Of a DNA stretch of 64,000 nucleotides, positions 1 to 58,665 are shown one piece after another. Every line of letters starts with the position of its first letter. Position 1 is the first letter of the stretch. The notes below the pieces were generated by a model. The model was not told the origin of the DNA and made no database searches. It saw only the letters and a program-made list of their open reading frames with translations. The stretch is from Owenia fusiformis (taxonomy: Eukaryota): the NCBI GenBank assembly GCA_903813345.2, contig CAIIXF020000001.1, forward strand, positions 22,444,001 to 22,508,000. The letters are read 5' to 3'. Made by a program: the position numbers and the translations under genes.

Positions 1-3000
1 CAAGTGACCTCACAATGGGGGAACTCCAAGTGGGTCAACTCTGTGCTGCGTTCTATGAGAACCTCTGGTACAGGGCTACCATACATGCAGTCCTTGGCAA
101 TATGAAGCAGGTAATGGCTTACTTATATGGGTACACATATAGAGGATATTCTTGGGGGGGATTGTATATTGGGTTTATCTTGATGAAATGTTATCTTATT
201 CATGGTAAAATTCTTGTGATCTGATTGCAGTCTACATTGGTGTCTGTCTACTTTGTGGACTATGGTGACTTTGGAGTTGTACCAAAGAAACACTTGAAAC
301 CCCTGGTGACTCAATTCAGGCAGCTACCATATCAAGCAACAAGAGTACAGTTGCAAGGTGAGTAGCTTGAGTTTTACCAATGTAAGAGTACAGTCGCAAG
401 GTGAGTAGCTTGAATTTACCCAAGAGCACAGCTGCAAGGTGAGTAGCTTGAATTTACCCAATCGTAGTGTTGTCGCGATTAATCGATACATCGCGATATA
501 CATCGCCAAAACTGATTCTGGCGATGCATCGATGTCTGAAACAAAACATCGATGTTTTTAAAAAAAATTAATTTGCGATAAATCACCCTTTCTTATCTTA
601 TTTTGACGCAAATCGCTTACCTTTCTCATGACTTATTTCATTTTCCAATGTTTTCTGATGTTCTTTCCCTTTAAAACTGTTTTCGCTAGTCGAAATGAAC
701 CATTAATCTAAAAAATTACTTTCATTTTGTTATTAGAAGTTCCCGGATGTACCACGCACTCTTATTATCCCACCGAACGAAGTTCGAGGGGGATATAGAA
801 AAGCCGTCCATAAATTCGTATACTAAGAAAGCTATAACAAGAAATAAATGGATATGTACTAAATACAATATGCAGGAGAATATCATCATGAAGCACTGGA
901 AAATTAACGAGAGAAGAGAACATTAACAAATGAATATGAAACAGTATATTCTCCGCAAAGAGGGTAAACTAAGAGGACAAATCAACATAAGACCAACAGT
1001 AAGGGGAAGGGGAGAGTTTTCCGGCCGGATTAAAACGTTTAACCCACCTATGCGCAGTCTCAAGTCTGTGGACCCTGAAGAAAGATAACTAACATCGCAA
1101 TCAAATCAAGACAAAGAAAGAAGAAAATAAATGAAGAAACCAATGCAGCAAAAACAAATGACGTCCGTCCGTTCGTCCGTCCGTCCGTTCGTGTGTCCGG
1201 GCAATAACTCAAATACCGGTTGACGGATTTCATTCAAATTTTATAGGCTTATGCCTTATGGGTGTAGGACCTCTGCTCGAGAAGGAATTTTCAATATGGC
1301 CGCTTAATTCAAAATGGCGGCCATTTTTCGGAAAAAATATAATCTTTATTAACTCAAATACTAGTGGATGGATTTGGATCAAATTTTATATGCTGTTGCA
1401 TTGGTACAAAGGAGCTTTGCTCAAGAAGACATTTTCAAGATGGCCACCAAATTTCAAAATGGCGGCCATTTTTCGTAAAAAAACGTTATCTTTGATAACT
1501 CAAAGACCATAAAATGGATTTGGTTCAAATTTTAGATGCTGATGCCTATGGAGTATGGACATTGGAGCTCTGCTCAAGAAAGGATTTTCAAGATGGCAGC
1601 TAAATTTCAAAATGGCTGCCATTTTTCATAAAAGAACGTAACCTTTGATAACTCAAATACCAGTTGACGGATTTGGTTCAAATTCTATATGCTGATGCCT
1701 AGAGACAAAGAAGTTCTGCTCAAAAATAAATTTTCAAGATGGCCACTGAATTTCAAAATGGCCGCCATTTTTCGTAAAAAACGTAATTAATGATAACTCA
1801 AATACTAGTGGATGGATTTGGTTCCAATTTTATATGCTGATGTTTAGGGGAAAAGGAGATCTGCTTCTGAAGAAATTTCAAAGGCGATAGCTGAATTTCA
1901 AAATGGCTGCCATTTTTCATTAAAAAAGTAATCTTTGATAACCCAGATACCATTGGACGGACATTCTCTGCTAAAGAAGAAATCTAAAGATGACAGCTGA
2001 ATTTCAAAATGGCAACCATGTTTCATAAAGACATAATCTTTGATAATTCAAATACCAGTGGATGAATCTGGCTCAATTTTTTTATCAAAACATGTTTTGT
2101 TCGGTGGGATTTGCTACTCCGTGGAGTTGCTGTTTTTCTAGTTAATTGTTCTGTTCGGTATTTTAGTGCATTAGCGTTCGGTATTTCAGTGCAACTTGCT
2201 CGGACTTTTTCTCGATGTACATCGCGATGTCCATCGATGTTTACTACTGAAAATTGCCGATGCATCGATGTATGATAATGGCACATCGCGACAACACTAA
2301 CCCAATGTAAGGGTACAGCTTCAAGGTGAGTAGCTTGAATTTACCCAATGTAAGGGTACAGCTGCAAGGTGAGTAGCTTGAATTTACCCAATGTAAGGGT
2401 ACAACTGCAAGGTGAGTAGCTTGAATTTCCCTAAGAGCACAGCTGCAAGGTGAGTAGCTTGAATTTCCCCAATGTAAGAGCACAGCTGAAAGGCGAATAC
2501 AATGTAATTTGAATTTCACCAATGTCAGACTACAGCTGCGAGTGGTGTATATTGAATTTCCCCAATGTTAGAGTACAGCTGTAAGGCAAGTATCTTGAAT
2601 TTCCCCTAATTTTCCTTAATCTGTCAATGACTTAGTTTATCTGTTCAAATGAAATCAAAGTTTCGTAGTTTTTCTGAATTTTCTACTACTACTAGCAGAA
2701 AATATTCAGAATGGAAAAGATTTTAAATATGATTTGCACGCCCAGTGATCGTGAATTTGGGATGGAGGGGGGAGCAGGCAATTTCTGCTAGGAAATTCAA
2801 CAAATCTGGAAGATTTATTTTTTCAAGAAAAAGTTTACTATTGAATTGGTAAATGGATAGGTGCACGGTATGGTAAAATATGTTAGGTTTTCTGGGATTT
2901 TTTCTGAAACACTACGCATCTAAGGTATGAGATCTATTAAAAAAGGCGCAAGGCCATCAACAGGCACAAATCAACGTTTTTGCTATAAATCAAGCAACAA

Positions 3001-7508: not shown

Positions 7509-8359
7509 CACCCTATGCAGACAGAGCCTGTGGGAAATATTGGGTGCGGATCAAATGAGCGGAGGGTGCGGAGCTAACGGTCATTTTTGAATTTAAATTT
7601 GGGATATTTCTGAAACTAAGCCGTTTTGGGACTTCAAATATACCAAGATATGTGTATTTGACACCAAATATCAATACAATTGTGAAAATAGTAGCGCAAT
7701 TCATTCTATAGCGACGGAGTGTGCCTTAAACCTTTCCCAGACCTATATATTTTGAAATTATCCCTTTAATACTGAGTCCCCAGCATTCATAAAAAATGGT
7801 GTTCAAGGTACACTATCTATACAAATTATTTTTGCATCTTGGAAGCCAGGCAGTATCTGTGTGATTTTATAAAAATTCGGAAATGTTTTTCAGATATGAG
7901 CCCCCTCTAAATATTGGGTGCGGAGGAGCTCCATAAACGTACCTCCGCACCCAATATTTAGAGGGGGCTCATATCTGAAGAACATTTCCGAATTTTTATA
8001 AAATCACATAGATACTGCCTGGCTTCCAAGATGCAAAAATAATTTGCATGGGTAGTGTATCTTGAACACCATTTTTTATGAATGCTGGGAACGCAGTATT
8101 AAAAGGATAGTCTCAAAATATATAGGTCTGGGAAATGTTTAAGGCATACTGCGTCGCTATAAAATGAATTGCACTACTATTTTCACAATTTTATTGATAT
8201 TTGGTGTCAAATACACATATCTTGGTATATCTGAAGTCCCAAAACGGCTTAGTTTCAGAAATATCCCAATTTTAAATTCAAAAATGACCGTTAGCTCCGC
8301 ACCCTCCGCTCATTTGCGCCGCACCCAATATTTCCCACAGGCTCTGTCTGCATAGGGTG
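7509..8359. mobile_element. 851-bp near-perfect palindromic MITE, CAC...GTG ends, 5-bp TSD (Transib-like)
   Basis: CACCCTATGCAGACAGAGCCTGTGGGAAATATTGGGTGCGG from 7509 and its reverse complement ending 8359; arms ~420 bp meet at a ~14-bp spacer (7928-7941); TSD TATGT at 7504-7508 and 8360-8364. Confidence 0.92.
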
Positions 8360-9230: not shown

Positions 9231-12200
9231 CTAAGCAATAGAGACAAGTTCAGTGGCTGCCTCCTTTTCTTTCCGTTTCTTCTTCTTTTTCTTCTCTTCA
9301 TCAATAACAGTCTCAATAACCTCACCATTTTCCTGCTCTCCTTTCTTGTCCTTCTTCTTCTTTTTCTTCACCTTTTTCTCAGCATCTTCTTCGATGTTAT
9401 TGTTATCAATTTCTATAATTTGGTATTTTTCCTCAAGTTGTTTCTTTTTCTTCTTTTCTTTCTTACTGATAGGTGGCTCTGATGGTTGTTCAGTATTTCT
9501 TGATAGAACCATGTCATCTGGGGCCTGATGAAGCTCAACTTCTGCACGATTTCTTGTCGCTGATTTTTCTCGCTTCTGGGCTATTTTTTCTTTCATTTGC
9601 TCACGCTGCCTTTCCTGCTCTTGGACAATACTGGAATTTCAAAACAGATTTAACCCTTAATATATTTTGAAATTAGTTGCATAATGTAAAATGAATAGAT
9701 TGGATGAATGTGTCATCTTTTTATCATTGTTATGTCACCACCAAAAGTGGTGACATATTGTTATGGTCTCCGTTTTTTTGCGACGGCGTCCGGCGGTTGG
9801 TGGTTGGCGGTTGGCGTCCGGCGGTTGGCGTCTGTAACAATTTCTTACAACTTCCTATAACTTAACAAATACTGTTTAGACTGACTTCAATTTTTTTCTA
9901 AATCATCTACATGTTCTCAGAAGTTCAAATCTGACTTTAGATTTGACATTTGACCTTCAATGACCTTCTCAAGGTCAAAAAGGTCTTTTTTCAACTTGCT
10001 TCACATTGACTAAATTTTTTTTCAAAATCATCTACATGTTCTCAGAAATTCAAATCTGACTTTAGATTTGACATTTGACCTTCAAATCTGACTTTAGATT
10101 TGACATTTGACCTTCAATGACCTTCTCAAGGTCAAAAAAGGTCAAAAAGGTCTGTTTTCAACTTGCTTCAAATTGACTAAATTTTTTTTTCAAAATCATC
10201 TACGTGTTCTCAGAAATTCAAATCTGACTTAAGATTTGACATTTGACCTTCAATGACCTTCTCAAGGTCAAAAAAGGTCAAAAAGGTCTGTTTTCAACTT
10301 GCTTCAAATTGACTAAATTTTTTTTTCAAAATCATCTACATGTTCTCAGAAATTCAAATCTGACTTAAGATTTGACTTAAGATTTGACATTTGACCTTCA
10401 ATGACCTTCTCAAGGTCAAAAAAGGTCAAAAAGGTCTGTTTCCAACTTGCTTCAAATTGACTAAAAAAAATTTTCAAAATCATCTACGTGTTCTCAGAAA
10501 TTCAAATCTGACTTTAGATTTGACTTAAGATTTGACATTTGACCTTCAATGACCTTCTCAAAGTCAAAAAAGGTCAAAAAGGTCTTTTTTCAACTTGCTT
10601 CAAATTGACTAAATTTTTTTTTCAAAATCATCTACATGTTCTCAGAAATTCAAATCTGACTTTAGATTTGACATTTGACCTTCAATGACCTTCTCAATGT
10701 CAAAAAAGGTCAAAAAGGTATTTTTTCATCTTGCTTCAAATTGACTAAATTTTTTTTCAAAATCATCTACATGTTCTCAGAAATTCAAATATGACTTTAG
10801 ATTTGACATTTGACCTTCAATGACCTTCTCAAGATAAAAAAAAAGGTCAAAAAGGTCTTTTTTCAACTTGCTTCAAATTGACTAATTTTTTTTTTCAAAA
10901 TCATCTACATGTTCTCAGAAATTCAAATCTGACTTTAGATTTGACATTTGACCTTTAATGACCTTTTCAAGGTCAAAAAAGGTCAAAAAGGTCTTTTTTC
11001 AACTTGCTTCAAATTGACTAAATTTTTTTTTCAAAATCATCTACATGTTCTCAGAAATTCAAATCTGACTTTAGATTTGACATTTGACCTTCAATGACCT
11101 TCTCAATGTCAAAAAAGGTCAAAAAGGTATTTTTTCATCTTGCTTCAAATTGACTTAATTTTTTTCCAAAAATCATCTACATGTTCTCAGAAATTCAAAT
11201 CTGACTTAAGATTTGACTTTAGATTTGACATTTGACCTTCAATGACCTTCTCAAGGTCAAAAAAGGTCAAAAAGGTCTTTTTTCAACTTGCTTCAAATTG
11301 ACTAAATTTTTTTTTCAAAATCATCTACATGTTCTCAGAAATTCAAATCTGACTTTAGATTTGACATTTGACCTTCAATGACCTTCTCAATGTCAAAAAA
11401 GGTCAAAAAGGTATTTTTTCATCTTGCTTCAAATTGACTAAATTTTTTTTCAAAATCATCTACATGTTCTCAGAAATTCAAATATGACTTTAGATTTGAC
11501 ATTTGACCTTCAATGACCTTCTCAAGATAAAAAAAAAGGTCAAAAAGGTCTTTTTTCAACTTGCTTCAAATTGACTAATTTTTTTTTTCAAAATCATCTA
11601 CATGTTCTCAGAAATTCAAATCTGACTTTAGATTTGACATTTGACCTTTAATGACCTTTTCAAGGTCAAAAAAGGTCAAAAAGGTCTTTTTTCAACTTGC
11701 TTCAAATTGACTAAATTTTTTTTTCAAAATCATCTACATGTTCTCAGAAATTCAAATCTGACTTTAGATTTGACATTTGACCTTCAATGACCTTCTCAAT
11801 GTCAAAAAAGGTCAAAAAGGTATTTTTTCATCTTGCTTCAAATTGACTTAATTTTTTTCCAAAAATCATCTACATGTTCTCAGAAATTCAAATCTGACTT
11901 AAGATTTGACTTTAGATTTGACATTTGACCTTCAATGACCTTCTCAAGGTCAAAAAAGGTCAAAAAGGTCTTTTTTCAACTTGCTTCAAATTGACTAATT
12001 TTTTTTTTCAAAATCATCTACATGTTCTCAGAAATTCAAATCTGACTTTAGATTTGACATTTGACCTTTAATGACCTTCTCAAGGTCAAAAAAGGTCAAA
12101 AAGGTCTGTTTTCAACTTGCTTCAAATTGACCAAATTTTTTTTTCAAAATCATCTTCATCTTTTCAGAAGTTCAAATTTGACTTAACAAGTTATCAGAAA

Positions 12201-15200
12201 TTCAAATCTGACTTAAGTTTGAACTCATAATATTGTGAGCAACTAGGTGGTGACATTTTGTCATGTTAATGCCTTGTTAATTTAGAAAGTGTTTGTGTAG
12301 ATTTTTGTGCTGTCTCCTTGTATCTTAGGCAGAACAGAATTTTACATGGGATGATATACATGATAGTTGGTTCTACTGCTTCTTGAATTGCTATACCATG
12401 TGGTCTCTTTTGACTATATTTAACAAGCAAACAAAGAAATAAAATTTCATTTACGTATTTTCTCTCTGTGCAGCTTGATGAAGAAGTTCATAGGCCTTAT
12501 CCCTCTTTTCCTGTTTCTTGGCCCTCTTCTGTTTTATGATCTCTGCCTGCCTTTGCCTCTCATTCTCAAACTGCACATTGTGGTTGTCCAGGCTGCTCAT
12601 CATTTTGTCCCTCTCCTACGAGTACATAGATTAAATGGATAAAGTGTTTATCCTGAAGGAAATAAATTTATTTCCTCTTCATTCTCAAACTGCACATTAT
12701 GGGTGTCGAGGCTTCTCTTCCATAATTTTTCCCTCTTGTCCAAATACATTTCAGAGGAAATAAGTTTATATCCTCGGCATACATACACATTTTTCATCAT
12801 ATCTTCAGGCTGAAGTATAGTTTGAAATAGGGTTATAGACTGGCAAGTTATGGATATAGGGGTTATTCTAAGTTTGGTTGAGATAAAGATATGTACCTCA
12901 CTGCTCACTGAGATCAGCATTGCTCATTGTTTTGCCTATATGAACAAAAACCATAGTAACAGCATGAAAGCCATGTTAACTGCTATTATAGAATACTTTG
13001 ATATTGTGCTAAGAATGTTTTGGATGCAACAACGTAGCATTTTAGTCTCTTCTTGATTGTGAGTTTATTGCAGTAGTTTATTGACATGTCTTTCGTCATT
13101 AAGTTGTAAAAGGAATGTATTTATTGATCTGACCATGTTAGTTGATACGGAGCTATTGATTACTATAGCGTTGGTTCTAGAAGTTTACAGATATTCCCAG
13201 AGTTATTTATCTGTCAGTAGGTAAAATCATGGGATTTCAAGATAAAGCCCATGGTAAAATCATAATTCAGAACTGTTTTAACGCTTCTCATACAGAAAAA
13301 TTTAATGCTTTTTATTATTTTTTAATGCACCAAATAATGTTCATGTTGAATCCTACATTTTTTGATATGTATCATAAAACATATGGCCCAAAACAGTATC
13401 ATTAATTCCTTTATGCTATCTTTTTTGGCTGAGGACATTGGGTTAGAACATACAGGGCTGTCATCATGCATGTTTAATTGTGGTTTAGGAGTGCTCATAC
13501 TTCGAGAGCTTACATGTTAATATCTTATGTACTTAGAACTGCTTTGTCTACCAGTTTGACTGATGCTCCCAGGGGTGCGTTTATCTAAATTAATTCGTAA
13601 TGATCACTTTTGTATCTTTGGTATTCCAGACACATTGTTTGCCTTCAAGTTGGTATTGCACTATAAAGTTATTAGTTGGCCAGAGTTGATAGTTTAAGAT
13701 AATGCTGTTAGGGTAGAAAGGGAAAATATTGATGATGTAAATGTGAGAAAAAAGAAAACTTGGAGGTTTATTGATCCAAGCTCTTGGCTAGAAATGAGGA
13801 ATAAAAGGTCTATTATTTATAATGTTTTACTTTTGTTAGCCCTGGGCAAATAAAGCGTTAAACATTCCTTGTTTTTCCGGAATTGTTTAGGGAATGAGGC
13901 GGCTTATTTTGCATGTGGGAAATGGATCAAAGGAATGTTTTTATTTTCAATTTTTTTGACTGATTTATTGGGAAATTTTGTTGACATGCAATATGTTTGA
14001 TATACAATCTAGTTTTGGTTTGGGTATGCCTGATAAATTAGAAAGGCACCACTTTTGGTTTGGCAAAAATGTTGTGATTATGTTCTCAGATTTACATTTG
14101 AATTACTCAATTCAGAAGTTTTTCTCTCAGTTGGACTCTGTGGACTTGTTACTTCTTTTATCACATTATGGATAGCAACATCATAGACTTATTATCCACA
14201 TTGATCTGAATCTTGGTTCCAGCGCATAACAATGAGATGCATAAATGAAGTTTTATAAGATATTGATCATTTTATTGACAGGTAAATGGATCATTATTCA
14301 CTTCCGGAAGGTTCCACTGAGGACAATGGGAAATCCGGATTTGATGGATATCAGATCAATAATAAGAAAATTGTTTGTATCACTTAGACATTAGAATTAG
14401 CAAAGAAAACATTGAATTGGAATATGGAACATTATCACAAAAAATAGAGTATACTCAGCCTAAAACAGATTTAGGAAGCTTGATTGAAACATTTTTCTTT
14501 ACTGCAAAGTCATTCTCAGCTACATCATGATTTGCACTGAATTAAACGTTGGCCCTTACCTCTTCATAATATTTATTGACATCGGCAGGTGCTTTGCGTT
14601 CACCTCCAGGTATAGGTGTCCCTGGTATAGCCATCTCTAGTTCCACTGCCCTCATACTTAGATTGGTCCCGTCCCTCTGGGGCATACCATTATATGGTGA
14701 CAGCGTGTCGGCACGAAGATATTCTGGATTATGGAATGTCATTTCATTATGGCTACGACTGAGTTGCCGATTGTCTCCACGTGAAGTTGGATTTGCATTT
14801 GCACTTCCTGCATTAAATACAGCAGTGTGGGTGGAGTTAGAGGTACGATTTGGTTTACTTCCTGGTTCAGTACTTGCCCGGGCGTGACCTGGCTTAGCTT
14901 GTATAACTGGCTCGTGTATTGCATGCTCTGGTTTAGGTAGAACTGGTGTTATTGTTCGTTCTGGTTCTACTACTTCATTGTCATTTTTATTTTTTGATTT
15001 TAAAGGTTTCAACTTGCCAACCAGTTTAACAGGTGGTTCAGTTCGACTCCTAGGTCTTCTAGGACTTCTTGTTTTTGGTGATTCTTCTGATTGGACATGG
15101 AATGTGGCCGCCACCTTGTGTTCATTTTCAGCATTGCGAGAATGTCGAGCTGAGTGACGCTCATGGGGAGTCATTCTTCCAGGATATGGACGTTTAGGTT

Positions 15201-18200
15201 CTTTGCCTTGTTTAGGTGGTAGCTCCAGGCGGGAGTCTGGACGTGGGGCTGGGGACTTACCACGACTACTCATTGGGCGACTCGTCTCTGAGCCTGATGA
15301 TTTACCGCTGGAGAGTCGTTCACGGGCTGGAGGGAAAGAGTTCAAAGTTACTTGTTGAAGCATAAAATTATTAAAGTTGACTTTCATTTCATATATGTAC
15401 ATTGTACGTGTATTGATCGAATAATGACTGATACTTCATTGTTGTTGTTATTGTTATAATAACATTACCACAGTTATTTAGTCATACTATTTAAGTACAC
15501 TACTCCACTGGGGATGAACTGGAAACGAGGGAGGTTTGACTTCGTATCAAAATGGCCGCAAATGAAACAAGAGCATTTGGTAAGACCTTTCTTTTCACAA
15601 TTTCGTGCATTTATCTTTCAAATTACAACTAAATATTTGGCAGGTACATAGTTCATAAGTCCCGGTTTCAATATGATTACAACTTAGAAATCAATCCAGT
15701 CATTGCTGAGATTTTAACAAATCAATTCCCTAGCTTTGGAAACGGACACATTTTTCAATGATAAGAAGAAATGTTTAACTTGCGAAAAACTTGCCTCATG
15801 AAGGCATCAATTTGCAAATATCAAAGCAATGACTGCATTAATTTCTAACATGTAATTATATTCTGAAACCGTAACTCACAAACCACTTACTTGCCAAATA
15901 TTTAGTAATAATTTGAAGGACAAAAGCATGAAAATCGTAAAAACAAAAAATCTTTCCAAATCCTCCTTTTTCATTGCGGCCATTTTGATGCAAGGCAAAA
16001 CCTCGCTCGTTTCCAGTTGTTGCTGCTGTCTTTTCCAGACCATCTCCAGTGTATACTCACAACATTAATATAATGTATGCCTTCATCTTGACTAAATTGA
16101 TGCAATATTTTATAACATTGCTACAATCATATAATCTTGTCATGGCATTAATTCTCAATTCTTCATTCGGAAATTCATGACAGTGATCTCCTTTCTTAAA
16201 AAAGACAATCTAGCTGTTTTAAGAAATAAGATATACTGAGTATAAGGAGTTATCTACTGACACTGTTGTTGTATCCGCACATGTAGTACAAAGGAAGATT
16301 TAACCATTTATTATAATGTTAACACCACCTCAGAGGTGCTACATGCTGATATATTCATTATGGTTAATAATACTAAAATGGATTTAGAAATTTTCATTAT
16401 GGATGTCTACCCATGCAGTACACAAATGAATGATGCCTTGTACTGATTTCTCCCCTGCCTGATAATATAATGATAATGCAAACATACAGTAAAAACATTA
16501 ACATTGCACTCATTAATTTAATTAAAAGCGATAGAGATATCTCAATCATAACAATTTAGTGAATAGAAAATGAGACATTACACCATATGAAAAAATGCTG
16601 CTACTTTCACTCCAGAGCGTTACATTCGTTTGTAAACGCTGCGGAGCTAAATAAAATGGTGGGTGAATGACTGGTGGCTGTAAATATACCTATCGCTGCA
16701 GAAGTACCACGCAGTTTTTCTTGTTCGGCTCTTATCTCATTGCCAGTCATTTTTAGTTCATTCCTGCTCTCATGTATGAAGCCGAGCATCACCACACTCT
16801 CTTTGGCATATAGCTGCTCCACTGCATGTAGAAAAGCCTCCTAAAATTCAGAATTCTTTTTTTTAGTTATTGTACATGTTCTGTAGAATTATTTTACATA
16901 AAAAGGTGTTTGCAATTTAAGTATACTGTACATGTATTCGCAATTTTTTCGGTTTCATAAAAATATTTAAATGTAATAGGTGTTCAAAGAAGGTATACTT
17001 TGCATGTATTCATATTTTAAATATTTTACATCTATAATGTAATAGAATGCTTATTTCAAGGCACAACATGTACTAACCTAAGACAGATATTTCTTGAGAT
17101 TACTAAAACAAGTACTTGTAAAATTACGTATCTAGGTTTTCTGTTTCAATAGACTAGATGCGAGTAGAAATAATCTTCATTAGGCCTATTGTCATAAAGG
17201 TAACTGGTCAACTCATACCCAAGACAACTCGTACCCAAGTCAAGTCGTACCCAAGACAACTCGTACCCAAGACAACTCGTACCCAAGACAACTTGTACCC
17301 AAGTATATGTTTTGTTTTGAATCAAGTGTTGGGCTGGGAATGGGTATAGATATACATATTATAATGGTTACATACAGTTCAGAATAGTTTGAAGTATGTA
17401 GAAGAGTTTTTGGAAGAAATCGATTGAAATTTGTGACCAAATATATTGGTCACAGATTCAGATGTTCGAGGGAAGAGATTTATGTTTATTCCACATATTC
17501 ATAATCATTGTTCACAATATTAGTGGTATTTTTGTATGTTAATGATTGTTTGGAACAAGTATCAGATCTAATTCATCTTGAAATATGGTATTATCAAAAA
17601 TATAAAGATTTTCAAAACTTGCGCCTATTTCTTATTAAACAGATAATCTATTTAGGATTTCATATTATCAGATTAAAGAATGATAATTCTAAGAAGTCAC
17701 CTTCATAAAATTAAGCAATAAAAAATATTCTAAATAATATGAATATCAAATATTATTTTGATACTTATTCATACATGATATAATACACTTTGCATGCATG
17801 TGTTCAAATATAATCCAATTAAGTTCAAAATGGAAAAGAAATTAACAGATTAAAGTTCCCTTATTAATTTTCTCTGAATGCACTTAGCTAAATTAATTGT
17901 TTGATTCATTTGTTGAAAAGTTACTGTTGTAATTATATTCATTTATATATATGTATTACAAAAAAGTAGAGAACAAGCCCTTCAAAGCACTTCAAAGGTA
18001 ATCCAAGTAAAAACAAAATGCTTTGCTTAATCCATTGAGAAAAAATGTCTTCTAAATTCAGAAAAAAATATTGAGGCACATTATAACATTAAACATTTTG
18101 ACACAGACTCAGTTTGTTTTCTTATATGCACCCATAATACAGAAAATAAACGTGGGTACGAGTTGTCTTGGGTACCAGTTGACTTGGGTACGAGTTGTCT

Positions 18201-19303
18201 TGGGTACGAGTTGTCTTGGGTATGAGTTGTCTTGGGTACGAGTTGACTAGGAAGCGTCATAAAAACTCAAAAGTCAGTTTTCTTTGAAACTGTGACTTCT
18301 AGGCCGGGGAGATTCCCCATTGACCCCATGTTGTAAAATCACAAAAGTGAAATATATTTTCTTGTGTTGCGCAGATAATATTTTCTTTTACTGGACATAT
18401 TTTAATTTGTATAACTATTAGATACATAAGGGTAATATGAAACGTGAAACACTTAAACTGATGAATATATGTGTTAAAGGGAACTTCTAATACCCTGCCA
18501 TATTATTTCCCCCCGAATTAGCCACCTGGTGGCGAAACTGGTAACTACCTACTTGCATCTGAGTAATTAAATGGTGATTGAACTCATAAAATACTATTTG
18601 TCAATAATGTGTTTATAAAATGTCATAAAATGGGGCCATTGGCATATAGCTTATCTCATTATTATATTGCTTTATTCTGTTCTGCACAATCAATTGCATC
18701 ATAAAAAACTATAGTGTTTCCGACTTATGTAGAATGCCTTATTATTAATTACAAATGGAGAGATTGCCAGTGTGAAACGCATCATGATTCTGTTTGAAGG
18801 TTAACAACACATAAAATGTATTCTGAGATTTCAATCCATATTAAAAGGGTGATTTTTGTAATGAGAATTTTTTCCCTAAGGGAAAGAAAACATAACATTT
18901 TATGTATATACCTGTACATGCAGCATTTGAGGGAAAGCATTTTATCCTAATGCACTCATAAATGCTCTATACAGGTAGACCTGAGACCTAATTAACATAT
19001 TGGAACATTTCTCCTAAAGTGTATCAATGTTGAATATACCCAAAGGGCACCTAAAAACCGAATATCATGTAATATATTTTAGTGAAGAGGACAATATATT
19101 GACCGAGCAATCTTTCATTCTAAGCACTTTCACTCTTCTCATAATGTATTCATCACTCCCAGTGAACTCCTGATCATTGATCATTGCTATTTATTAAAAG
19201 GTAATCAATTGTGCTTTAAGCAACTGAGGGCACTGACCTGCATTTCTGGCTTGAGGGTCCTCATCTTTTCTATGAGTTCATCGTTCTCCCAGATGTCACT
19301 CAT
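9231..19303 (-). CDS. Uncharacterised charged/disordered protein, about 514 aa; coding exons 19303-19238, 16840-16690, 15326-14560, 12615-12455, 9630-9231
   Basis: All junctions are GT-AG with matching phases (0,1,0,2); total 1545 nt, open to TAG at 9233-9231. Translation MSDIWENDELIEKMRTLKPEMQ/EAFLHAVEQLYAKESVVMLGFIHE.../ARERLSSGKSS...YYEE/ERDKMMSSLDNHNVQFENERQRQ.../IVQEQERQREQMKEK...KKKKKRKEKEAATELVSIA*. The start codon is inferred; no domain recognised. Confidence 0.8.
9727..12278 (+). mobile_element. Helentron-associated (HINE/DINE-1-type) element, family B, carrying a ~136-bp satellite (~17 monomers)
   Basis: 5' ATGTCACCACC with partial hairpin, GGCGGTT/GGCGTCC microsatellite, CATCTACATGTTCTCAGAA recurring every ~135-148 bp from 9904 to 12151, 3' GGTGGTGACAT subTIR then ...TTAATGCCTTGTT. 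Confidence 0.88.
15506..16051. mobile_element. Diverged palindromic MITE with CAC...GTG ends
   Basis: CACTGGGGATGAACTGGAAACGAGGGAGGTTT...ATCAAAATGGCCGCAA mirrors TTGCGGCCATTTTGAT...AAACCTCGCTCGTTTCCAGTT...CATCTCCAGTG; TSD unclear (TACTC left, TATACTC right). Confidence 0.7.
17199..18255. mobile_element. Foldback-type element with TIRs built from 16-bp tandem repeats, 8-bp TSD
   Basis: (CAACTCGTACCCAAGA)x6 at 17209-17303 and the reverse-complement array at 18153-18247; TSD GTCATAAA at 17191-17198 and 18256-18263. Confidence 0.88.
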
Positions 19304-31512: not shown

Positions 31513-34500
31513 TCAAAATGGTACTTGTACGAGAGCAGCAATCACGATAACGAGCACCAGAACAAGGATAGATGTCACTATCAGGTAAAGGCTCAGCATA
31601 CAGCACTTGAAGCGACGACCCTGAAATTATGGGATATATTGTGTTAAATATCAAATATGATGTTTATCAAAATAATGGGGATATTCCATAGAAAACTATA
31701 GCTCTTATTCAAGACTATACTTGACCAAAATCATAACAGTTTTCATATATAATATACAGTAATAAAGTTTCAACTGTAAATATACAATTTGAAATAATAA
31801 ACTTGCCATCAGATGAAAAAGGTAGTTGCATAATACCAGAGCATGTTGCTAAGTGAAACGAGTATCAGAATGGATTTTTTGATTATTTTAAAACAGTCAT
31901 GAACATTTATTGATTCTCATATACTACAAGTCACATTACTATAACACATTTATCATGAAGAATTGGTTATTTTGGGAGCAATCTATTCATTCTGTGAATG
32001 GAGATCAATATGGCATTGAAGCTCAGACTGTTATACTACTCAGATGTCACAAGACCATTCAATAAAATACGATACAATATATAAAATACAAATCAATAAA
32101 ATACAATACAATTTAGCAATTTAACCATTAAACCAAAGTTAATCTACTTAATAATTGGCAAAATCATGATCAGTGTGTAATATAGTTATTTTCCTTGAAA
32201 AAAGCTCCAATATGTCATTATCAATCTTTGAATAAATGGAGTGAAAACTTACAGAGTATTTGGGTTCAACGTCAGCCATTCTTGGATCTCCCTTCTTTTC
32301 CATTTCAATCTCTTCTCTCTTCTCTGTAATATAGAAATGAATTGAAAGTACAGTTTTGGGATTTAAAATGCCAAAACATGAATAAATAACATGCTAAATT
32401 GTTGAAATTTGTTTGCACCCTGCAAAAAATATTGGGATATTTTGACCAAAACAGATACCTTTAAATTCACAAAAAATGCCGCCATTTTGAATAAATATGA
32501 GGCAAAATGATGAATTATGTATTTGTGTCAGTCATACTATGAATGCCTATAATATCAATAAATTAAGACATGTTCCTTAAATATTTTTTTTGTATGTCAG
32601 AATTTTACTCTACAGGGTGTCCGGAAAGTAAAGATACAAATGCTCTTATTTTAAGAAATTTGTTTTTTTTAAAATGAAATTGCTACAGATTGTAGAGGAA
32701 CAAAATTACAATATATCTACCAACTTTCATCATATATAGTCTTAATGTGTTTAAGTTACGGTTGTTATGGTTACGGATGTGAGGGGTATGCGGAGCAGTT
32801 CCAGAACAACGCTAAAAAGTGAAAAATTGCTAAATGACAACCATTTGAAACAGTGTTTTTTGTTGTTGTATTTTCTATGTTTGTTTTTTTTTGTTCATCA
32901 TTGTATTATTGCAGCTGCCATAGTGTTTTCTATTATATAATGATGTCATTGCTACTGAACTATGTTATGTCACTTACCAGTATAATGAAAGAAATATTAT
33001 ACAAGTGCCTAGAAGAATGGTCCCTGGCAATTTGTAGGAAAGTCAATATTGCATCTCCACAATGCACCAATTCACAAAGCAAAAAACAAATCTTACAATT
33101 GAGTGCCTTGACATTAAACCTTTCTATACAATGCCCCATATTCACCTGATAAAGTCTATTTAGACTTCTACCTGAATGACCATTTGAAAGCAATATTTGT
33201 AAAAAAGGTCAACATACAAATTAGACTCAGCTGGAAGCCAATGTTATCAGCAATCTGAGAGATGGACAGCAGCGGTTTTGTCAGGTCTTTGAACCGCCGG
33301 TCAAGATGCACCAAGAATGTATAGATAAAGGGGAAAATACTGAATATTAATGATAGCAGTAAATGAAAATTAGTAAGTGAAATTATCAAATAATGTTACA
33401 TTACTAATCCCTATGCTGTTGTGCTACATAATTTGATATAATATAGGTATAGATGGTGGAGTGCCAAGATCATATGAGTAGGAAAGAGATTTGTAGAACA
33501 CAGTTGTGACGTTGCTCCACTTACCCTCGACTCCCGTTACCATAACAACCATAACTTTTTCATTTTGAAACTGAAAGTCATGACAGTTGCAGGATATATT
33601 GTTATAATGTCATTCTACATTCTGGAGCAATTTCATCTCATAACAGGTAAATCTCTTGAAATTAGAGCATTTGTATCTTTACTTTCCGGACACCCTGTAG
33701 TTTTCAAATATGTGCTCAGACTATGATAATACGGAAAATTAAAAAAGTTATTAAAGAAAAAGTGACCATTGAACAATTCTGTCCGGGCTACTAATCAATA
33801 TTTAGCACTCAGTGTGATATGGGATGCACAAAGCAATTCTGGATGTTATCCTACAATTATTAGTTATTTAGAGATCTAAATCATACATGTAATTATTTTA
33901 ATCTTCAAATGTTGTATGGTCTTATTCAAATATACTTAATGCAACTGAAAAATATCACTTTAACAAAAGTCAACAAACTTTCCCTTCGTGTTTAAAAGCA
34001 AATAACAGTGACAACTTTTTAGTTGTTTCATTAATGAGAATTCCAAATTTTTGTTTAACAAAACTACAACAAATATGAAGAAAAGAGTGATCCTCTCTAG
34101 AATAACCCAATTAACAAGACATATGATAGATATTACAATATATACATGTATATATATAATAAATAAATATGATTAACATAACAAAATGTCACCACCTAGT
34201 TGCTCATAATATTATTAGTTCAATCTTAAGTCAGATTTGAATTTCTAAGAACTCAGTATATGATTTTGAAAAAATATTTGGTCAATTGAAGCATGTTTTT
34301 TTACCCTGAGAAGGTCAAATCTCAAATCTAAAGTCAGATGTGAACTTCTGAGAACTTGTAGATGATTTTGAATAAATACCTTTTTGACCTTGAGAAAGTC
34401 ATTGAAGGTCAAATCTTTTTTGACCTTGAGAATGTCATTGAAGGTCGACTCTAAAGTCAGATTTGAACTTCTGATAACTTATAGATGATTTTGAAAAAAC

Positions 34501-48090: not shown

Positions 48091-49528
48091 TTTAACTTTT
48101 TTGCTTATTATATAAGGTCTAAAATATTTTTTCGTATCTGTGTTTGCTATTCCACTTGTACTTGGAATTCTTTTGAATGGTAGAAAACAAAAAAGTACAA
48201 TCATCCATAAAATTGACCATTTTCATTTCTACTTCAAACTAATGAATGAAAACTCATGCCCATTGGCCAGGGGAGGGTTTTCCGGTCTAAACATTCTTTC
48301 AAAATCATGTAGTTTTTCACCATTCTGAGCACTCCTTTGGAGATTCTGGGCCAAAGCTGTTAAAGATGAACCCCTTATAATGTTTTGAAAAGTGACCCCT
48401 CCATTGGCAAAATTTTGCTACTGAAACTAATATTACTTAGCATTAATTACAATGAGCAACAAACACAGGAATGTAGACTAAGTGATTAATTTGCTTAAAT
48501 GCATTTCCCATGAGTAGTAAACAAGGGTACTTGGTACATACATGGTACTTTGCTTTTAGATACTGTGAGTAGCTAAAGTTTTTCTATTTCCATGTCAGGT
48601 TAACTTCAAATTACTATGATACTCATATTATAAAAATTAACCACATATCTCAAACTGAACTTGGCATCAACAAGAACATTCATCTCTAGGATATAAAGGC
48701 TGATATGGATTATACATTGTATTATACATTGATTATACATTGTATATTGTACTGATATGCACAATACACTCTTATTTCCTTACCCCGAGACTCAGACCCA
48801 AGTACCTTAGGTTCTGAATGGAAAAATAAAAAAAATATACAGTTTTAACTCTGATACTATCTAAATGACCTTAAGAGTACCAGTTGCAGCATTTAATGAA
48901 GGTTACATTACAAAACCAATGCCAGGTACCATGACAGAATATCTAATAAATGCTATTTTGACAGAATCGTTATCGACCATATTGTCAATGATTGGTTAGA
49001 GCTACATCAAAGGAATGTCTCTCCCTTCAAGAATGTAGACGAAGCTCTCTTTTAAAGAAACAGACTCAAACTATTGGAAATGTATAATTTTCTTTTCACA
49101 ACAGACGAAACTCCTACATGTTTTTGACTGTCTCAAACTAACCAAACTGAATTCCATCCACTAAGGGCCAAATAGAACTTATAAGTATCAATTTCAAAAG
49201 TTTTTTTTAACTCAAGGCACATAGATTGCTTTTACTCAGAATGATTTCTATTTGCAACAATAACACTGATGTTGATTATATTTCTTTTTATGTCATATTC
49301 ATATGCCAATATCTGATCGAACTACAAGCTTTGTCTCCTCAGATTTTTTTTGATATGTGTGAGTTGGCAATACCAAGCCAATACTTCACAAAAAATAATA
49401 AAATAAATTCTTGGAGCTTTGTGAACAACTCTTCAACATCCTTTTGTCACAGCTACAGTAGAATATCATTATATTGAATATATTTCATTGAAAAGTATTG
49501 AATTTCCGAGTTTACTTTGAAATCCTAC

Positions 49529-55589: not shown

Positions 55590-58360
55590 AGAATAACTCC
55601 CAGATCAACCCAAACCTTGGAAACTATAGAATTTACAGAGGAACTAGTCCTACATAAACTCAAAAAGCTCAAAGCCTGCAAATCCCCCGGCCCCGACAAT
55701 ATTCCCGCAAGATTTCTACTGGAATGTTCACATGAACTAGCCCTCCCTCTCAGTCTGCTTTTTACCAAATCCCTAGATTCAGGAACATTACCATCAATCT
55801 GGAAAGATGGCGAGATAACACCCATCCACAAAAAGGGTAAAAGAACAGCTCCCAGCAACTACCGTCCAATATCGCTAACTTGTATCCTGTGTAAGACCAT
55901 GGAATCCATAATTAGGGACGCAATGGTAAACCACATGGTGACACTGGGCTTATTAACAGATGCCCAACACGGGTTTGTACCCGGGCGTTCATGTAGCACC
56001 CAGTTGCTTACAGTACTTGAGGATTGGACAAGTCTACTCGATACTGGCAACCCAATAGACGTAATATATTTTGACTTTTCCCGGGCGCTTGACAGCGTAC
56101 CGCACTGCAGACTACTTGAAAAACTAAACAGCTATGGCTTCAAGGGGAACCTTCTAAAGTGGCTGACTGCATTCCTGACTAAACGAAGACAGAGAGTCAA
56201 AGTCAATGGTAGCCTCTCAAGCTGGACTGAAGTCACCAGTGGTATCCCTCAAGGCTCGAGCCTCGGACCACTGGCCTTCATAATCTACATAAACGATCTT
56301 CCCGAGAAAGTTAAAAGCACTTTGAAAATCTTCGCTGATGACACGAAGCTGTACAATGCCATTCCCAGACAAGACAACATCACTAAACTACAAGAAGACA
56401 TTAACGAACTTGTCAAGTGGTCCGAAAAATGGCTGCTCAAATTCAACTCCAGCAAATGTAAAGTTCTTCATCTGGGGAACAATAACAACAACCACAAATA
56501 CACACTAGATAACCAACCACTGGAAGATGTCACCAAAGAACGTGACCTTGGCGTGACCATTGACCAGGATTTAAAGTTCCATGACCATGTCTCCAACTGT
56601 GTAAACAAAGCAAACCAGAACAACGGCAACGCCAAAGCGTAGCGAATCCCATCGAACAGAAATGGCTGGCATTTTTACAAACGAAGCGCAAATATCATTA
56701 AAACAACACACCAGAAAGGCCACCATCATCAGAAGAAATAATATGCTTTTAAGTAAAGCCACCTCTAAAATTTTTGAAAAATCGCACACATACTTGTAAA
56801 ATAACACACATAAAAATGGTGGCCATTTTTCAAAATGACCGACTACTCCCTAAAGTTTTATTAGACAATGTGCCATGCTTAAAGTATTCACATATCAAAT
56901 ATGAACAAAATCGCTCCACTACTTTTCGAGTTATAGTAAAATACGTTAAAATGGCGGCCATTTTTCAAAACTGTTTTCAAAATGGCCGCCTTCTACCAAA
57001 AGTGTCATAGGACAGTGTGCTGTGCTTATAGTATTCACATACTAAATATTAACAAAATCGCTCCACTACTTTTCAAGTTATAGTAAAATATGTTAAAATG
57101 GCGGCCATTTTTCAAATTTTTTTTCAAAATGGCCGCCTTCTACCAAAAGTGTCATAGGACAGTGTGCCATGCTTATAGTATTCACATACCAAATATGAAC
57201 AAAAACGCTCCACTACTTTTCGAGTTATAGTAAAATACGTTAAAATGGCGGCCATTTTTCAAAATGGCCGCCTTCTACCAAAAGTGTCTTAAGACAGTGT
57301 GCAATGCTTATATTATTCACATACCAAATATGAACAAAATCGCTCCACTACTTTTTGAGTTACAGCAAAAATCGTAAAATGACGAGTAAAGGCCGCCATT
57401 TTTCAAGATGGCTGCCATGTGCTTCTTTAATATCTACATTTGTAGCATTATTAATGTCCTTTATAATTTTTTTACATTTAAAACATATTGCTATTACAGT
57501 TTTACATATTGCACCTAAATTACTGTAAAATCGTCACTAAAATGGCTGCCATTTTGAAATGAGCGGCCATTTTGGAAATCGGCTTTTGAGCAGAACTTCT
57601 ACCCCCATAGGGTATATGTGTACAAAATATGAACAAAATCGGGCCAATGGTATTTGAGTTATTGCCCGGACGGACGGACGGACGGACGGACGGACGGACG
57701 TACGTACGGACGTACGTACGGACGGACGGACGGACGGACGGACGGACGGACGGACGGAGGCGTTCCCTATATCCCTCCGAACTTCGTTCGATGGGATAAT
57801 AAGATTTTGGGTGCAATCAAAAGAACATTCTCAAACTAAGATGCAGATATTTTCCTCCCCCTATACACAACCCTAGTCCGCCCCCACCTGGAATACTGCA
57901 CCGTAGCCTGGAATCCCAGATATCAATTGGACATTAATAAGATTGAGAAAATACAAAGGAGAGCCACCAAACTCATCACCGGCATGACCGACCTACCCTA
58001 CGAAGAACGACTAAAGCAGCTTCACCTATTTCCGATGACATACAGGAGGAAAAGAGGAGACTTAATTCAAGTATATAAAATCATGAATGAGATAGACAAG
58101 ATAGAGCCATCCCACTTCTTTACCCCAAGTCACACCAACACAAGAGGCCACAGCCAGAAATTCTACAAACCCAGATGTAACCTTGCCCTGAGACGAGGGT
58201 TCTTCAGTCAGCGTACCATAGACGACTGGAACAACCTCCCAGAGAATGTAGTTACAGCCTTAACATTAGATGATTTCAAGGTAAAGGTCGATACCTACTA
58301 CTACCCAGACATGTAGAAGATCACAAGAGACCCAGGATGACCAGTTCACACTACACTAGT
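55590..58360 (+). mobile_element. 5'-truncated CR1/L2-group LINE (RT pseudogene), interrupted by a HINE at 56614-57799
   Basis: RT motifs KSPGPD, YRPISL, QHGFVPGRSC, GIPQGS, FADD, WLLKFNSSKCKVLH, ERDLGV; resumes at 57800 with KILGAIKRTFSN*...LVRPHLEYC...IQRRATK...RGDLIQVYKI...TRGH...FFSQR..WNNLP. In-frame stop at 57837-57839. Confidence 0.93.
56614..57799 (-). mobile_element. HINE family A-related copy inserted into the LINE
   Basis: subTIRs ATCCCATCGAAC (56646-56657) / GTTCGATGGGAT (57786-57797), (GGAC)n microsatellite 57668-57757, tandem cores with AAAATGGCGGCCATTTT. Confidence 0.88.
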
Positions 58361-58419: not shown

Positions 58420-58665
58420 TTGCTGGTGCAAGCCATAACCACAGCTAAACATAAAATTACAAGGTGTTTTCACTGCCAATCTTTCGGACACGTGGCTAGG
58501 GGTTGCTCCAGCAAAGCTAAGTGTGAGAATTGTGCTGGAGCCCACAAAGGTAAATGCTCAAATCCCACAAAGTGCTCAAACTGTGGTGAAAAACATAAGG
58601 CAAGCTCTATAAATTGCTCCATATACAAAGAAATAAAACTCCAAAGGAGTAAATATGAAATATAA
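58420..58665 (+). CDS. C-terminal part of LINE ORF1 (gag-like, three CCHC zinc knuckles)
   Basis: CFHCQSFGHVARGC, CENCAGAHKGKC, CSNCGEKHKASSINC; overlaps the start of ORF2. Confidence 0.85.
   Translation: MLVQAITTAKHKITRCFHCQSFGHVARGCSSKAKCENCAGAHKGKCSNPTKCSNCGEKHKASSINCSIYKEIKLQRSKYEI

What the first reader, a model, noticed from the sequence alone, without database searches (positions are those of the whole stretch)
810..1161. Candidate twister-ribozyme mobile RNA (retrozyme-like) with a permuted twister fold
Seen: P2 C1043-1045 with G1009-1011; conserved GA at 1012-1013; pseudoknot T1 CUC1059-1061 with GAG1014-1016 (canonical CCC/GGG); pseudoknot T2 AC1046-1047 with GU1064-1065 (canonical GC/GC); P4 CGCAG1053-1057 with CUGUG1066-1070; loop U-CUC-AA-GU; closing P5 AGGG1002-1005 with CCCU1073-1076; predicted scissile U1040^A1041 in UAA. 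A separate 9-bp stem GGAGAATAT875-883/ATATTCTCC946-954 lies upstream. Established: this is the twister consensus arrangement; eukaryotic twisters are described from RTE-type LINEs, while described small non-coding metazoan retrozymes use hammerheads. Inference: a ~350-nt ORF-less insertion with an internal self-cleavage site is what a retrotransposed, permuted monomer of a twister-processed (possibly circular) RNA would look like. Caveats: P2 has only 3 bp and the P1 region (1017-1039) is non-canonical.
Basis: partly seen in the sequence, partly recalled or inferred. Interest (0 to 1): 0.85.

Follow-up and report, generated by a model that had tools for sequence, protein, structure and literature searches.

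The report
Twister-like motif in a retroelement insertion
A 352-base mobile-element copy that landed inside another repeat carries a stretch that fits the self-cutting "twister" RNA pattern well, but nothing yet shows that it cuts, and it does not look like a circular-RNA element.

Summary
Window 810-1161 is a true 352-nt insertion. A paralogous copy of the host repeat (57590-57850, minus strand) and many reads and contigs join 809 directly to 1162.

The host is a Helentron-type HINE/Pearl-like repeat, and the insertion sits in its (GTCC)n microsatellite.

The insert belongs to a multi-copy, sense-transcribed family whose DNA depth rises about 6-fold from 5' to 3'. That is the pattern of 5'-truncated retroelement copies, not of permuted circle monomers.

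The twister-like motif at 1002-1076 keeps the following:
- the nested helices P5, P2, P1 and P4
- both pseudoknots, fully Watson-Crick
- the UAA site, the GA and the L4 AA

Support from the covariance model is weak. Rfam gives 19.7 bits against a gathering score of 37.6. A match this good is expected about 7e-4 times per window, or roughly 10 times per 2 Gb.

Stranded RNA reads cross 1040/1041 with no pile of ends. None of the 15 joints shown (212 hidden) is a back-joint of the insert.

Verdict: the ribozyme is plausible (about 45%) but unproven. The retrozyme reading is not supported.

The parts
810..1161 (+). 352-nt inserted copy of a dispersed, A-rich (163 of 352 A), non-coding repeat family. 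Probably a 5'-truncated retroelement 3' region.
   Evidence: Empty-site joints 809->1162 in reads and contigs. Paralog without the insert. Base composition. No long ORF. DNA depth gradient 5'->3'.
1002..1076 (+). Twister-like motif, type-P5 permutation, taken as a whole.
   Evidence: Rfam Twister-P5 19.7 bits, E 0.11, at 1003-1069. Only descriptor hit in the window. MFE and centroid folds reproduce the nested helices.
1002..1005 (+). P5 5' strand, pairs with 1073-1076.
   Evidence: Sequence. Pair probabilities 0.73-0.78 in the isolated motif but 0.01 in the whole insert.
1009..1011 (+). P2 3' strand (GGG), pairs with C1043-1045. Preceded by AA at 1007-1008.
   Evidence: Pair probability 0.58, rising to 0.80 with the family-majority C1031.
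1012..1013 (+). Conserved GA of L1. G1012 is the predicted general base.
   Evidence: Sequence. Role taken from PMC11662667 and the module table in PMC8501958.
1014..1016 (+). Pseudoknot T1 strand GAG, pairs with CUC 1059-1061. The middle pair is A-U where the consensus has G-C.
   Evidence: Sequence. Required by the descriptor.
1017..1036 (+). Non-canonical P1 hairpin (U1017-1019 with A1033-1035; C1021-1022 with G1027-1028) holding the palindrome CCGGCCGG. It leaves 3-4 unpaired bases before U1040.
   Evidence: Strong homodimer potential: -26.3 against -7.4 kcal/mol.
1040..1042 (+). UAA of L1. Predicted scissile bond U1040^A1041.
   Evidence: Sequence and Rfam alignment. RNA reads show no ends here.
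1043..1047 (+). P2 5' strand CCC (1043-1045), then T2 strand AC (1046-1047), which pairs with GU 1064-1065.
   Evidence: Sequence. Descriptor.
1053..1070 (+). P4 hairpin (1053-1057 with 1066-1070) and the 8-nt loop L4 UCUCAAGU. The loop is in register with the published L4 (U, T1, AA, T2).
   Evidence: Pair probability 0.97-0.99 in isolation and about 0.3 in longer context. Published L4 from the table read.
875..954 (+). 9-bp stem 875-883/946-954 upstream of the motif. Probably not functional.
   Evidence: Present in the MFE fold. However 948 A>C holds 15492 of 25418 of the DNA depth, and no partner change is listed.
757..809 (+). Left part of the host repeat (hairpin and start of the microsatellite): a Helentron-type HINE/Pearl-like element.
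   Evidence: Aligns to 57850-57760 on the minus strand. Architecture as described for Cg_HINE (PMC7492417 passages).
1162..2095 (+). Rest of the host repeat: (GTCC)n up to about 1199, then tandem repeats of about 145-153 bp.
   Evidence: families D9-D11, inverted pair I4..
57590..57850 (-). Paralogous host repeat without the insertion (the 'empty site').

Best explanation
Window 810-1161 is a 5'-truncated copy of a dispersed, sense-transcribed retroelement family. It inserted into the (GTCC)n microsatellite of a Helentron-type HINE repeat. The family's best-kept segment (about 997-1088) holds a circularly permuted (type-P5) twister-class ribozyme or its recent relic.

Proposed mechanism (inferred): in element transcripts the motif folds into P2/P4/P5 with pseudoknots T1 and T2. 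G1012 acts as general base and A1041 as general acid, cutting between U1040 and A1041. This would serve transcript processing, by analogy with twisters at the 5' end of RTE elements and hammerheads in the terminal repeats of Penelope-like elements.

Shown:
- the insertion and its exact ends
- the multi-copy family
- sense transcripts
- the fit to the motif

Inferred:
- the retroelement nature
- the 5' truncation
- any cleavage

The confidence given is for the whole statement, including a genuine twister. The insertion and truncated-retroelement part alone I hold at about 0.8.
For: Insertion:
- The joint 809->1162 is seen in 61 (X21) and 55 (X22) RNA reads and in DNA contigs.
- A paralog in the window lacks the insert.

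Family and truncation:
- Summed DNA contig depth is 12-21k over 826-930, 26-33k over 931-993, about 70k over 994-1056, and 84-135k over 1057-1161.
- A 3185-nt contig matches 811-917 at its 3' end and continues 3078 nt upstream with sequence unlike the window.
- RNA reads are mostly first-mate-on-minus: 5-46 against 0-12 in X21.

Motif:
- Twister-P5 is the best of the 4 Rfam matches with E<=10 in 700-1300, and it covers the full model.
- The descriptor finds it as the sole hit in the window.
- A match of equal quality occurred once in 192 Mb of Markov sequence.
- Both departures from the consensus in L4 (C->U in T1, C->U in T2) are matched by complementary changes in the partner strands (compared with the table).
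- A1041, A1042, G1012 and the first L4 A, the positions whose mutation kills activity in CHiTA, are all present.
- Its faults lie where CHiTA found tolerance: P1, P2 length, and extra bases 5' of the site.
- MFE and centroid folds reproduce the nested fold.
- The family-majority C1031 raises P1 and P2 pair probabilities from 0.58-0.70 to 0.80-0.96.
- The only 2 family variants listed inside 1002-1076 fall in the P1 loop (1031) and the P2-P4 joiner (1051).
- Bivalves are among the groups with predicted twisters (PMC11662667, section read).
Against: - Rfam score is 19.7 bits, far below the gathering score of 37.6. There are no gathering-level hits, and the match is absent from the whole-window E<=10 list of 10 matches.
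- Infernal chose a different register (P2 = 1003-1005) from the one that gives the pseudoknots.
- About 10 equally good chance matches are expected per 2 Gb, and this scan covers many windows (the arithmetic is mine).
- There is no covariation. No variant is listed in any paired position (71 rows hidden). The variant density of 2 of 75 inside against 17 of 277 outside is not significant (p = 0.39).
- Stranded RNA depth is continuous over the site: bins 14.1, 17.9, 19.7 in X21 and 12.3, 13.3, 20.6 in X22. The table of places where molecules begin or end is empty.
- The fold is no more stable than shuffles: z = +1.14, with 180 of 200 shuffles folding at least as well.
- In longer context P5 vanishes (0.01) and P4 drops to about 0.3.
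- A cut 120 nt before the 3' end would sever the template from its 3' end, an awkward place for a LINE-type element.
- No parent element was identified. The 38-codon frame at the 5' edge has 0 hits in 1.84 billion proteins.
Confidence: 0.45

Rival explanations
1. Same insertion (a truncated copy of an ordinary LINE/SINE-type family), but the twister resemblance is a chance look-alike. At most it is a structured 3'-region element, for example a stem-loop bound by the reverse transcriptase, and the RNA never cleaves itself.
For: - The covariance-model score is sub-threshold.
- Chance expectation is about 0.02-0.08 per window for the core descriptor, and about 10 per 2 Gb at full quality.
- P1 is non-canonical, P2 has only 3 bp, and T2 is A-U/C-G where the consensus is G-C/C-G.
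- RNA reads show no ends at 1040/1041 and no dip in depth.
- The fold has no thermodynamic signal.
- No covariation is seen.
- The position, 120 nt from the 3' end, is bad for a self-cleaver.
Against: - All catalytic and pseudoknot requirements are met at once, in exact L4 register, with both departures from the consensus compensated.
- A match of equal quality occurred once in 192 Mb of random sequence.
- The motif sits in a mobile element, the usual home of eukaryotic twisters (PMC8501958; PMC7761336 passage).
- 94% of descriptor-level natural candidates cleaved in CHiTA (PMC11662667 abstract).
Confidence: 0.42
2. One reading: a retrozyme-like element. A twister-processed, possibly circular, small RNA was reverse-transcribed, and one permuted monomer was inserted here.
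For: - The size (352 nt), low GC content, lack of an ORF and an internal ribozyme-like site resemble metazoan retrozyme monomers of 150-450 bp (PMC7229834 passages).
- The helix next to the site is weak and has a palindromic loop, as in hammerheads that act as dimers in tandem repeats (PMC4209133 passages).
Against: - The locus is a single monomer. No second copy or tandem lies in the window.
- The 5'->3' depth gradient and the 3185-nt contig running on upstream argue for a fixed 3' end and a longer parent.
- No back-joint 1161->810 is among the 15 joints shown, though 212 are hidden.
- The insert is not self-paired (z = +1.87), unlike retrozyme circles.
- RNA depth is low, 5-46 at about 6% sampling of each run, not the high expression described for retrozymes.
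- The insert ends are not at the cleavage site.
Confidence: 0.06

Closest known systems
Twister ribozyme, type P5 permutation (Rfam RF02684, clan CL00120)
   Same: - Order of elements: P5 - P2' - GA - T1' - P1 hairpin - UAA - P2 - T2 - joiner - P4/L4 (U, T1, AA, T2) - P5'.
- Both pseudoknots can form.
- The catalytic A, A and G are present.
- The match covers the full model.
   Different: - Score is 19.7 bits against a gathering score of 37.6.
- P2 has 3 bp instead of 4.
- T2 is A-U/C-G, and the middle pair of T1 is A-U.
- P1 does not abut the cleavage site.
- Cleavage has not been shown.
Twister 'T-variants' at the 5' end of the RTE-clade element Perere-3 of Schistosoma mansoni (PMC8501958)
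   Same: A twister-class motif carried by a non-LTR-type retroelement, with a relaxed or imperfect P1. The proposed role is processing of element transcripts.
   Different: - Those are type P1, lie at the very 5' end and cut at the element boundary, with the target-site duplication forming part of P1.
- Here the motif is P5-permuted, internal, and about 120 nt from the 3' end.
- No RT-coding parent was identified here.
Hammerheads in the terminal repeats (pLTRs) of Penelope-like elements, and metazoan non-LTR retrozymes (PMC4209133, PMC7229834, bioRxiv 10.64898/2026.07.22.740005)
   Same: - A ribozyme-like motif in the terminal region of a retroelement, mostly met as single motifs in truncated copies.
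- The helix next to the cut is weak and has a palindromic loop, which suggests action as a dimer.
   Different: - A different ribozyme class.
- No tandem repeat and no evidence of circles.
- The insert is not self-paired.
- No PLE reading frame is linked to it.
Helentron-associated interspersed elements (HINE; Pearl, Cg_HINE) of bivalves (PMC7492417). This concerns the host of the insertion only.
   Same: A hairpin-forming left flank, a GTCC-type microsatellite, then short arrays of tandem repeats of about 145-160 bp.
   Different: The termini and right-flank palindrome were not examined. The assignment rests on architecture, not on sequence identity to a named element.

Membership tests
Twister ribozyme (Rfam RF02684 / CL00120) | Reaches the curated covariance-model gathering score | tested here: not met
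   0 gathering-level hits in the window. Twister-P5 scores 19.7 bits against 37.6, E 0.11 on 601 nt. It is not among the 10 matches with E<=10 on the whole window.
Twister ribozyme (Rfam RF02684 / CL00120) | Nested helices P2 and P4 (with P1 and optional P5) in consensus order | tested here: met
   Sequence. MFE and centroid folds of 998-1080. Descriptor hit. P2 has only 3 bp.
Twister ribozyme (Rfam RF02684 / CL00120) | Two pseudoknots, between L4 and L1 (T1) and between L4 and L2 (T2) | tested here: met
   GAG1014-1016 with CUC1059-1061, and AC1046-1047 with GU1064-1065, all Watson-Crick. This shows complementarity only, not that the pairs form.
Twister ribozyme (Rfam RF02684 / CL00120) | Catalytic and conserved residues: A+1, A+2, the general-base G of GA, and the L4 AA | tested here: met
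   A1041, A1042, G1012-A1013 and A1062-A1063. Criteria from PMC11662667 and the table in PMC8501958.
Twister ribozyme (Rfam RF02684 / CL00120) | P1 ends one nucleotide before the scissile bond | tested here: not met
   The P1 hairpin spans 1016/1017-1036 and leaves 3-4 unpaired bases before U1040. CHiTA reports that P1 is dispensable and that insertions here are tolerated.
Twister ribozyme (Rfam RF02684 / CL00120) | Covariation that supports the pairs among homologs | tested here: inconclusive
   Only read and contig variants were available. None is listed in a paired position, and 71 rows are hidden. No homologous loci could be fetched.
Twister ribozyme (Rfam RF02684 / CL00120) | Site-specific self-cleavage | tested here: inconclusive
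   This needs a bench assay. Two stranded RNA runs show no pile of ends at 1040/1041 and no dip, at depth of about 12-20. That argues against efficient cleavage in vivo but does not test activity.
Metazoan non-LTR retrozyme | Tandem repeats (dimer or more) of a 150-450 bp unit, each with a ribozyme | tested here: not met
   One monomer only, with no other copy in the window. No back-joint is among the 15 joints shown.
Metazoan non-LTR retrozyme | Type I hammerhead ribozyme | tested here: not met
   No hammerhead match at E<=10 in 700-1300 or in the whole window.
Metazoan non-LTR retrozyme | Highly self-paired monomer expressed as abundant circular RNA | tested here: not met
   MFE -40.4 kcal/mol, z = +1.87, and 95 of 100 shuffles fold at least as well. 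RNA depth is low and no circle joint is shown. The joint list is cut short, so circles are not excluded.
5'-truncated non-LTR-type retroelement copy | Precise insertion compared with an empty site | tested here: met
   Joint 809->1162. Paralog alignment.
5'-truncated non-LTR-type retroelement copy | Common 3' end with variable 5' ends across copies | tested here: inconclusive
   Depth rises about 6-fold from 5' to 3', and one contig runs on upstream of 811. Summed contig depth is not a copy count, and individual copies could not be seen.
5'-truncated non-LTR-type retroelement copy | Target-site duplication and a 3' tail (poly-A or simple repeat) | tested here: inconclusive
   The target is a microsatellite, so a duplication cannot be called. 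The 3' end is A-rich but has no tail.
5'-truncated non-LTR-type retroelement copy | RT-encoding parent, or a partner sharing the 3' end | tested here: not met
   The LINE ORFs in the window (58637-61723) share no sequence with the insert. The frame 810-923 has 0 protein hits. The genome is not held.
HINE / Pearl (host repeat) | Left flank with an inverted repeat, a microsatellite (GTCC type), then short tandem-repeat arrays | tested here: met
   compared with the description in PMC7492417.

The most novel reading that the evidence does not exclude
The family is a twister-bearing counterpart of the hammerhead-bearing Penelope-like elements and retrozymes. A P5-permuted twister sits in the terminal region of a retroelement. 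Its weak P1 carries a palindromic CCGGCCGG loop, so it would be active only as a dimer: between neighbouring copies, or during synthesis of multimeric RNA. Monomeric transcripts, such as those seen in RNA-seq, would stay uncut. This would be the first twister used in this way in animals, and the first natural dimer-dependent twister.
Probability: 0.1. Interest if true: 0.75.

Novelty: new member of a known kind. Interest (0 to 1): 0.35.

Why it matters
If the motif cleaves, it adds a permuted twister in the 3'-terminal part of a mollusc-type retroelement to the two known animal settings of small ribozymes in retroelements: twisters at RTE 5' ends, and hammerheads in Penelope-like elements and retrozymes. 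It would also show that the Rfam twister models miss such variants by a wide margin.

If it does not cleave, it is a useful caution. A descriptor-perfect twister with compensated pseudoknots can arise in an ordinary repeat, and is expected roughly ten times per 2 Gb.

Either way, the retrozyme/circular RNA claim, which drove the high first-stage score, is not borne out.

Tried and rejected
- **Whole genome:** none is held for this window, so no census of copies was possible.
- **Earlier notes of this scan:** nothing by sequence, nothing for this genome, and only unrelated phage cases by words.
- **Exact-pattern scans:** 0 loci in each scan, with the P4/L4 core in metagenome contigs, in viral contigs, and a gapped core pattern in metagenome contigs.
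- **Second copy in the window:** blastn at word size 7 finds none. The best other match is 17 nt at 48269-48285. On reading it has no twister parts downstream, so I take it as chance.
- **tRNA-like head:** none in 1-3000.
- **Coding 5' edge:** the 38-codon open frame 810-923 has 0 hits with E<=0.001 in 1.84 billion representatives.
- **Thermodynamic signal:** none, with z = +1.14 for the motif and +1.87 for the insert.
- **Extra conservation of the motif:** 2 of 75 against 17 of 277 listed variant places, p = 0.39. The list is cut short.
- **Poly(A) signal:** AATAAA at 1126-1131 was considered as the 3'-end signal. It was rejected because most family members read G at 1129 (28 of 30 first-mate-on-minus reads in X21; 44667 of 58632 DNA depth in X2).
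- **The 9-bp stem 875-883/946-954:** not kept in the family (948 A>C).
- **Run index:** no RNA holder is listed.
- **Supplements:** I could not check whether this family is already catalogued.
Full report
**Observation.**
- P2: G1009-1011 with C1043-1045
- GA at 1012-1013
- T1: GAG1014-1016 with CUC1059-1061
- T2: AC1046-1047 with GU1064-1065
- P4: 1053-1057 with 1066-1070, with the 8-nt loop UCUCAAGU
- P5: 1002-1005 with 1073-1076
- UAA at 1040-1042
- the 9-bp stem 875-883/946-954

The minimum-free-energy and centroid folds of 998-1080 give exactly these nested helices plus a P1 hairpin at 1016-1036.

**The insertion is real and its ends are exact.**
- An inverted paralog of the flanking repeat lies at 57590-57850 and runs straight from the left flank into the (GTCC)n microsatellite, without the 352 nt.
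- Two raw RNA runs and two contig sets of the same species were laid on 700-1300. The best-supported joint is 809->1162 (skips 352): 61 reads in X21, 55 in X22, 1 contig in X3 and 5 in X2.
- The host repeat has a hairpin-forming left flank, a GTCC microsatellite and tandem repeats of about 145-153 bp (1204-2095). This is the architecture described for Helentron-associated HINE/Pearl elements of bivalves (PMC7492417, passages).
- The insert is 46% A (163 of 352), has no frame over 75 codons and no tRNA-like part.

**What kind of element is it?** No genome is held and there is no second copy in the window.
- Summed DNA contig depth (X2) is 12-21k over 826-930, 26-33k over 931-993, 68-74k over 994-1056, 135k over 1057-1077 and 84-95k over 1078-1161.
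- RNA depth rises likewise, from 5 to 46 in X21.
- One 3185-nt contig of X3 matches 811-917 with its last 107 bases and carries 3078 nt of other sequence upstream.
- This is the pattern of a family with a fixed 3' end and 5'-truncated copies of a longer parent. It is not the pattern of permuted monomers copied from circles. Summed contig depth is not a copy number, so this step is inference.
- RNA reads over the insert are about 10:1 first-mate-on-minus. In the usual stranded library that means the A-rich + strand is the RNA, which is the strand that holds the motif.
- This copy differs from the family majority at several places. One is 1031 T>C, seen in all 16 reads of X21 and all 15 of X22 that cover it, and in 67726 of 68138 of the X2 depth.

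**Is the motif a twister?**

For:
- In 700-1300 the best of 4 Rfam matches with E<=10 is Twister-P5. It covers the full model 1-58 at 1003-1069, with 19.7 bits and E 0.11.
- I compared the motif with the module table of natural twisters (PMC8501958) and the Rfam consensus line. The layout is exact: AA-P2'-GA-T1'-P1-UAA-P2-T2-joiner-P4-[U, T1, AA, T2]-P4'.
- The two departures from the consensus in L4 are each matched by the complementary change in the partner strand.
- The residues whose mutation abolishes activity in the CHiTA survey are all present: A+1, A+2, the general-base G and the first L4 A.
- The faults lie where that survey found tolerance: P1, P2 length and extra bases 5' of the site (PMC11662667, sections read).
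- My descriptor finds the candidate as the only hit in both strands of the window.
- In 192 Mb of Markov sequence the core descriptor hit 116 times with P4>=4, 33 times with P4>=5, and once when AA before P2' and P5>=4 bp were also required.
- The family-majority C1031 strengthens P1 and P2.

Against:
- The score is far below Rfam's gathering value of 37.6. There is no gathering-level hit, and the match drops out of the whole-window E<=10 list of 10 matches, none of them a ribozyme.
- Infernal's register differs from the one that gives the pseudoknots.
- By my arithmetic about 10 equally good chance matches are expected per 2 Gb.
- The fold is no more stable than shuffles (z = +1.14).
- In longer transcripts P5 is lost and P4 falls to about 0.3.
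- No variant is listed in a paired position, so there is no covariation. The lower variant density in the motif (2 of 75 against 17 of 277) is not significant (p = 0.39).

**RNA evidence.** In the two stranded raw-read runs, depth crosses the predicted cut without a dip: bins 1015-1035, 1036-1056 and 1057-1077 read 14.1, 17.9, 19.7 in X21 and 12.3, 13.3, 20.6 in X22. The table of places where many molecules begin or end is empty. At this modest depth, and with reads pooled from many diverged copies, this argues against efficient cleavage in vivo. It does not test activity. No back-joint of the insert is among the 15 joints shown, and 212 are hidden.

**The retrozyme reading.** Metazoan retrozymes are tandem repeats of 150-450 bp with type I hammerheads, expressed as abundant, highly self-paired circles (PMC7229834, passages). 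Here there is one monomer, no hammerhead, an insert less stable than 95 of 100 shuffles, low RNA depth, and a depth profile that points to a fixed 3' end. I put this reading at about 6%.

**A lead worth keeping.**
- The helix next to the predicted cut is weak and holds the palindrome CCGGCCGG.
- A homodimer of 1012-1042 is predicted at -26.3 kcal/mol against -7.4 for two monomers, and 0 of 300 shuffles gain as much.
- Any hairpin gains energy by dimerising, so this is only suggestive.
- It does mirror the weak, palindromic helix III of animal hammerheads, which act as dimers. Those lie in the terminal repeats of Penelope-like elements and are mostly met as single motifs in truncated copies (PMC4209133, passages).
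- A dimer-dependent twister would also explain why monomeric transcripts are uncut.

**Comparison and novelty.**
- Twisters in animal retroelements are known from the 5' end of RTE-clade Perere-3 (PMC8501958, abstract and sections 3, 17, 18) and are mentioned for the RTE superfamily (PMC7761336, passage).
- Bivalves are among the groups with predicted twisters (PMC11662667, section 35).
- If real, this is a new member of a known kind with an unusual position and permutation.
- My searches for twister together with retrozyme, with RTE and retrotransposon and with bivalve turned up no description of a twister-based retrozyme.

**Verdict.**
- The insertion and its mobile, multi-copy nature are shown.
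- The twister is plausible (about 45%) but unproven, and sits at noise level for an unbiased covariance scan.
- The retrozyme/circle interpretation is not supported.
- Interest 0.35.

Noticed in passing
window 757-809 and 1162-2095; also 56826-57850 (minus strand): Two inverted copies of a Helentron-type HINE/Pearl-like repeat. Each has a hairpin flank, a (GTCC)n microsatellite and tandem repeats of about 145-153 bp. They are heavily represented in both DNA and RNA runs, with RNA depth up to about 2300 at about 6% sampling of each run.
   Followed up: partly
window 1017-1036: The palindrome CCGGCCGG in the P1 region gives a strong predicted homodimer: -26.3 against -7.4 kcal/mol for two monomers, and 0 of 300 shuffles gain as much. 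It is reminiscent of dimer-acting hammerheads.
   Followed up: partly
window 58637-61723 (+) and 55566-56642 (+): Open frames with APE-type endonuclease and reverse-transcriptase domains (a LINE), and a second RT frame upstream. Neither shares sequence with the 810-1161 insert.
   Followed up: partly
window 7509-8359: A large inverted repeat with 418-nt arms, 95% complementary, 15 nt apart. It accounts for the two sub-threshold mir-3158-like Rfam matches at 7875-7993.
   Followed up: no
window 9875-12225 and 34172-34656: A long array of repeats of about 136-148 bp (17-21 copies, families D1, D2, D4), with inverted partial copies near 34.3 kb. It looks like another satellite-like array carried by a mobile element.
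   Followed up: no
window 1-340: Apparent exons on the + strand, with open frames ending at GT-like junctions. The insert probably lies in or beside a + strand gene, so some sense reads may be pre-mRNA.
   Followed up: no
window 17189-17318 and 18136-18265: A 16-bp tandem unit array present as an inverted pair, 85-95% complementary and about 820-880 nt apart (D14, D15, I5, I7). It may be the terminal inverted repeats of a DNA transposon.
   Followed up: no
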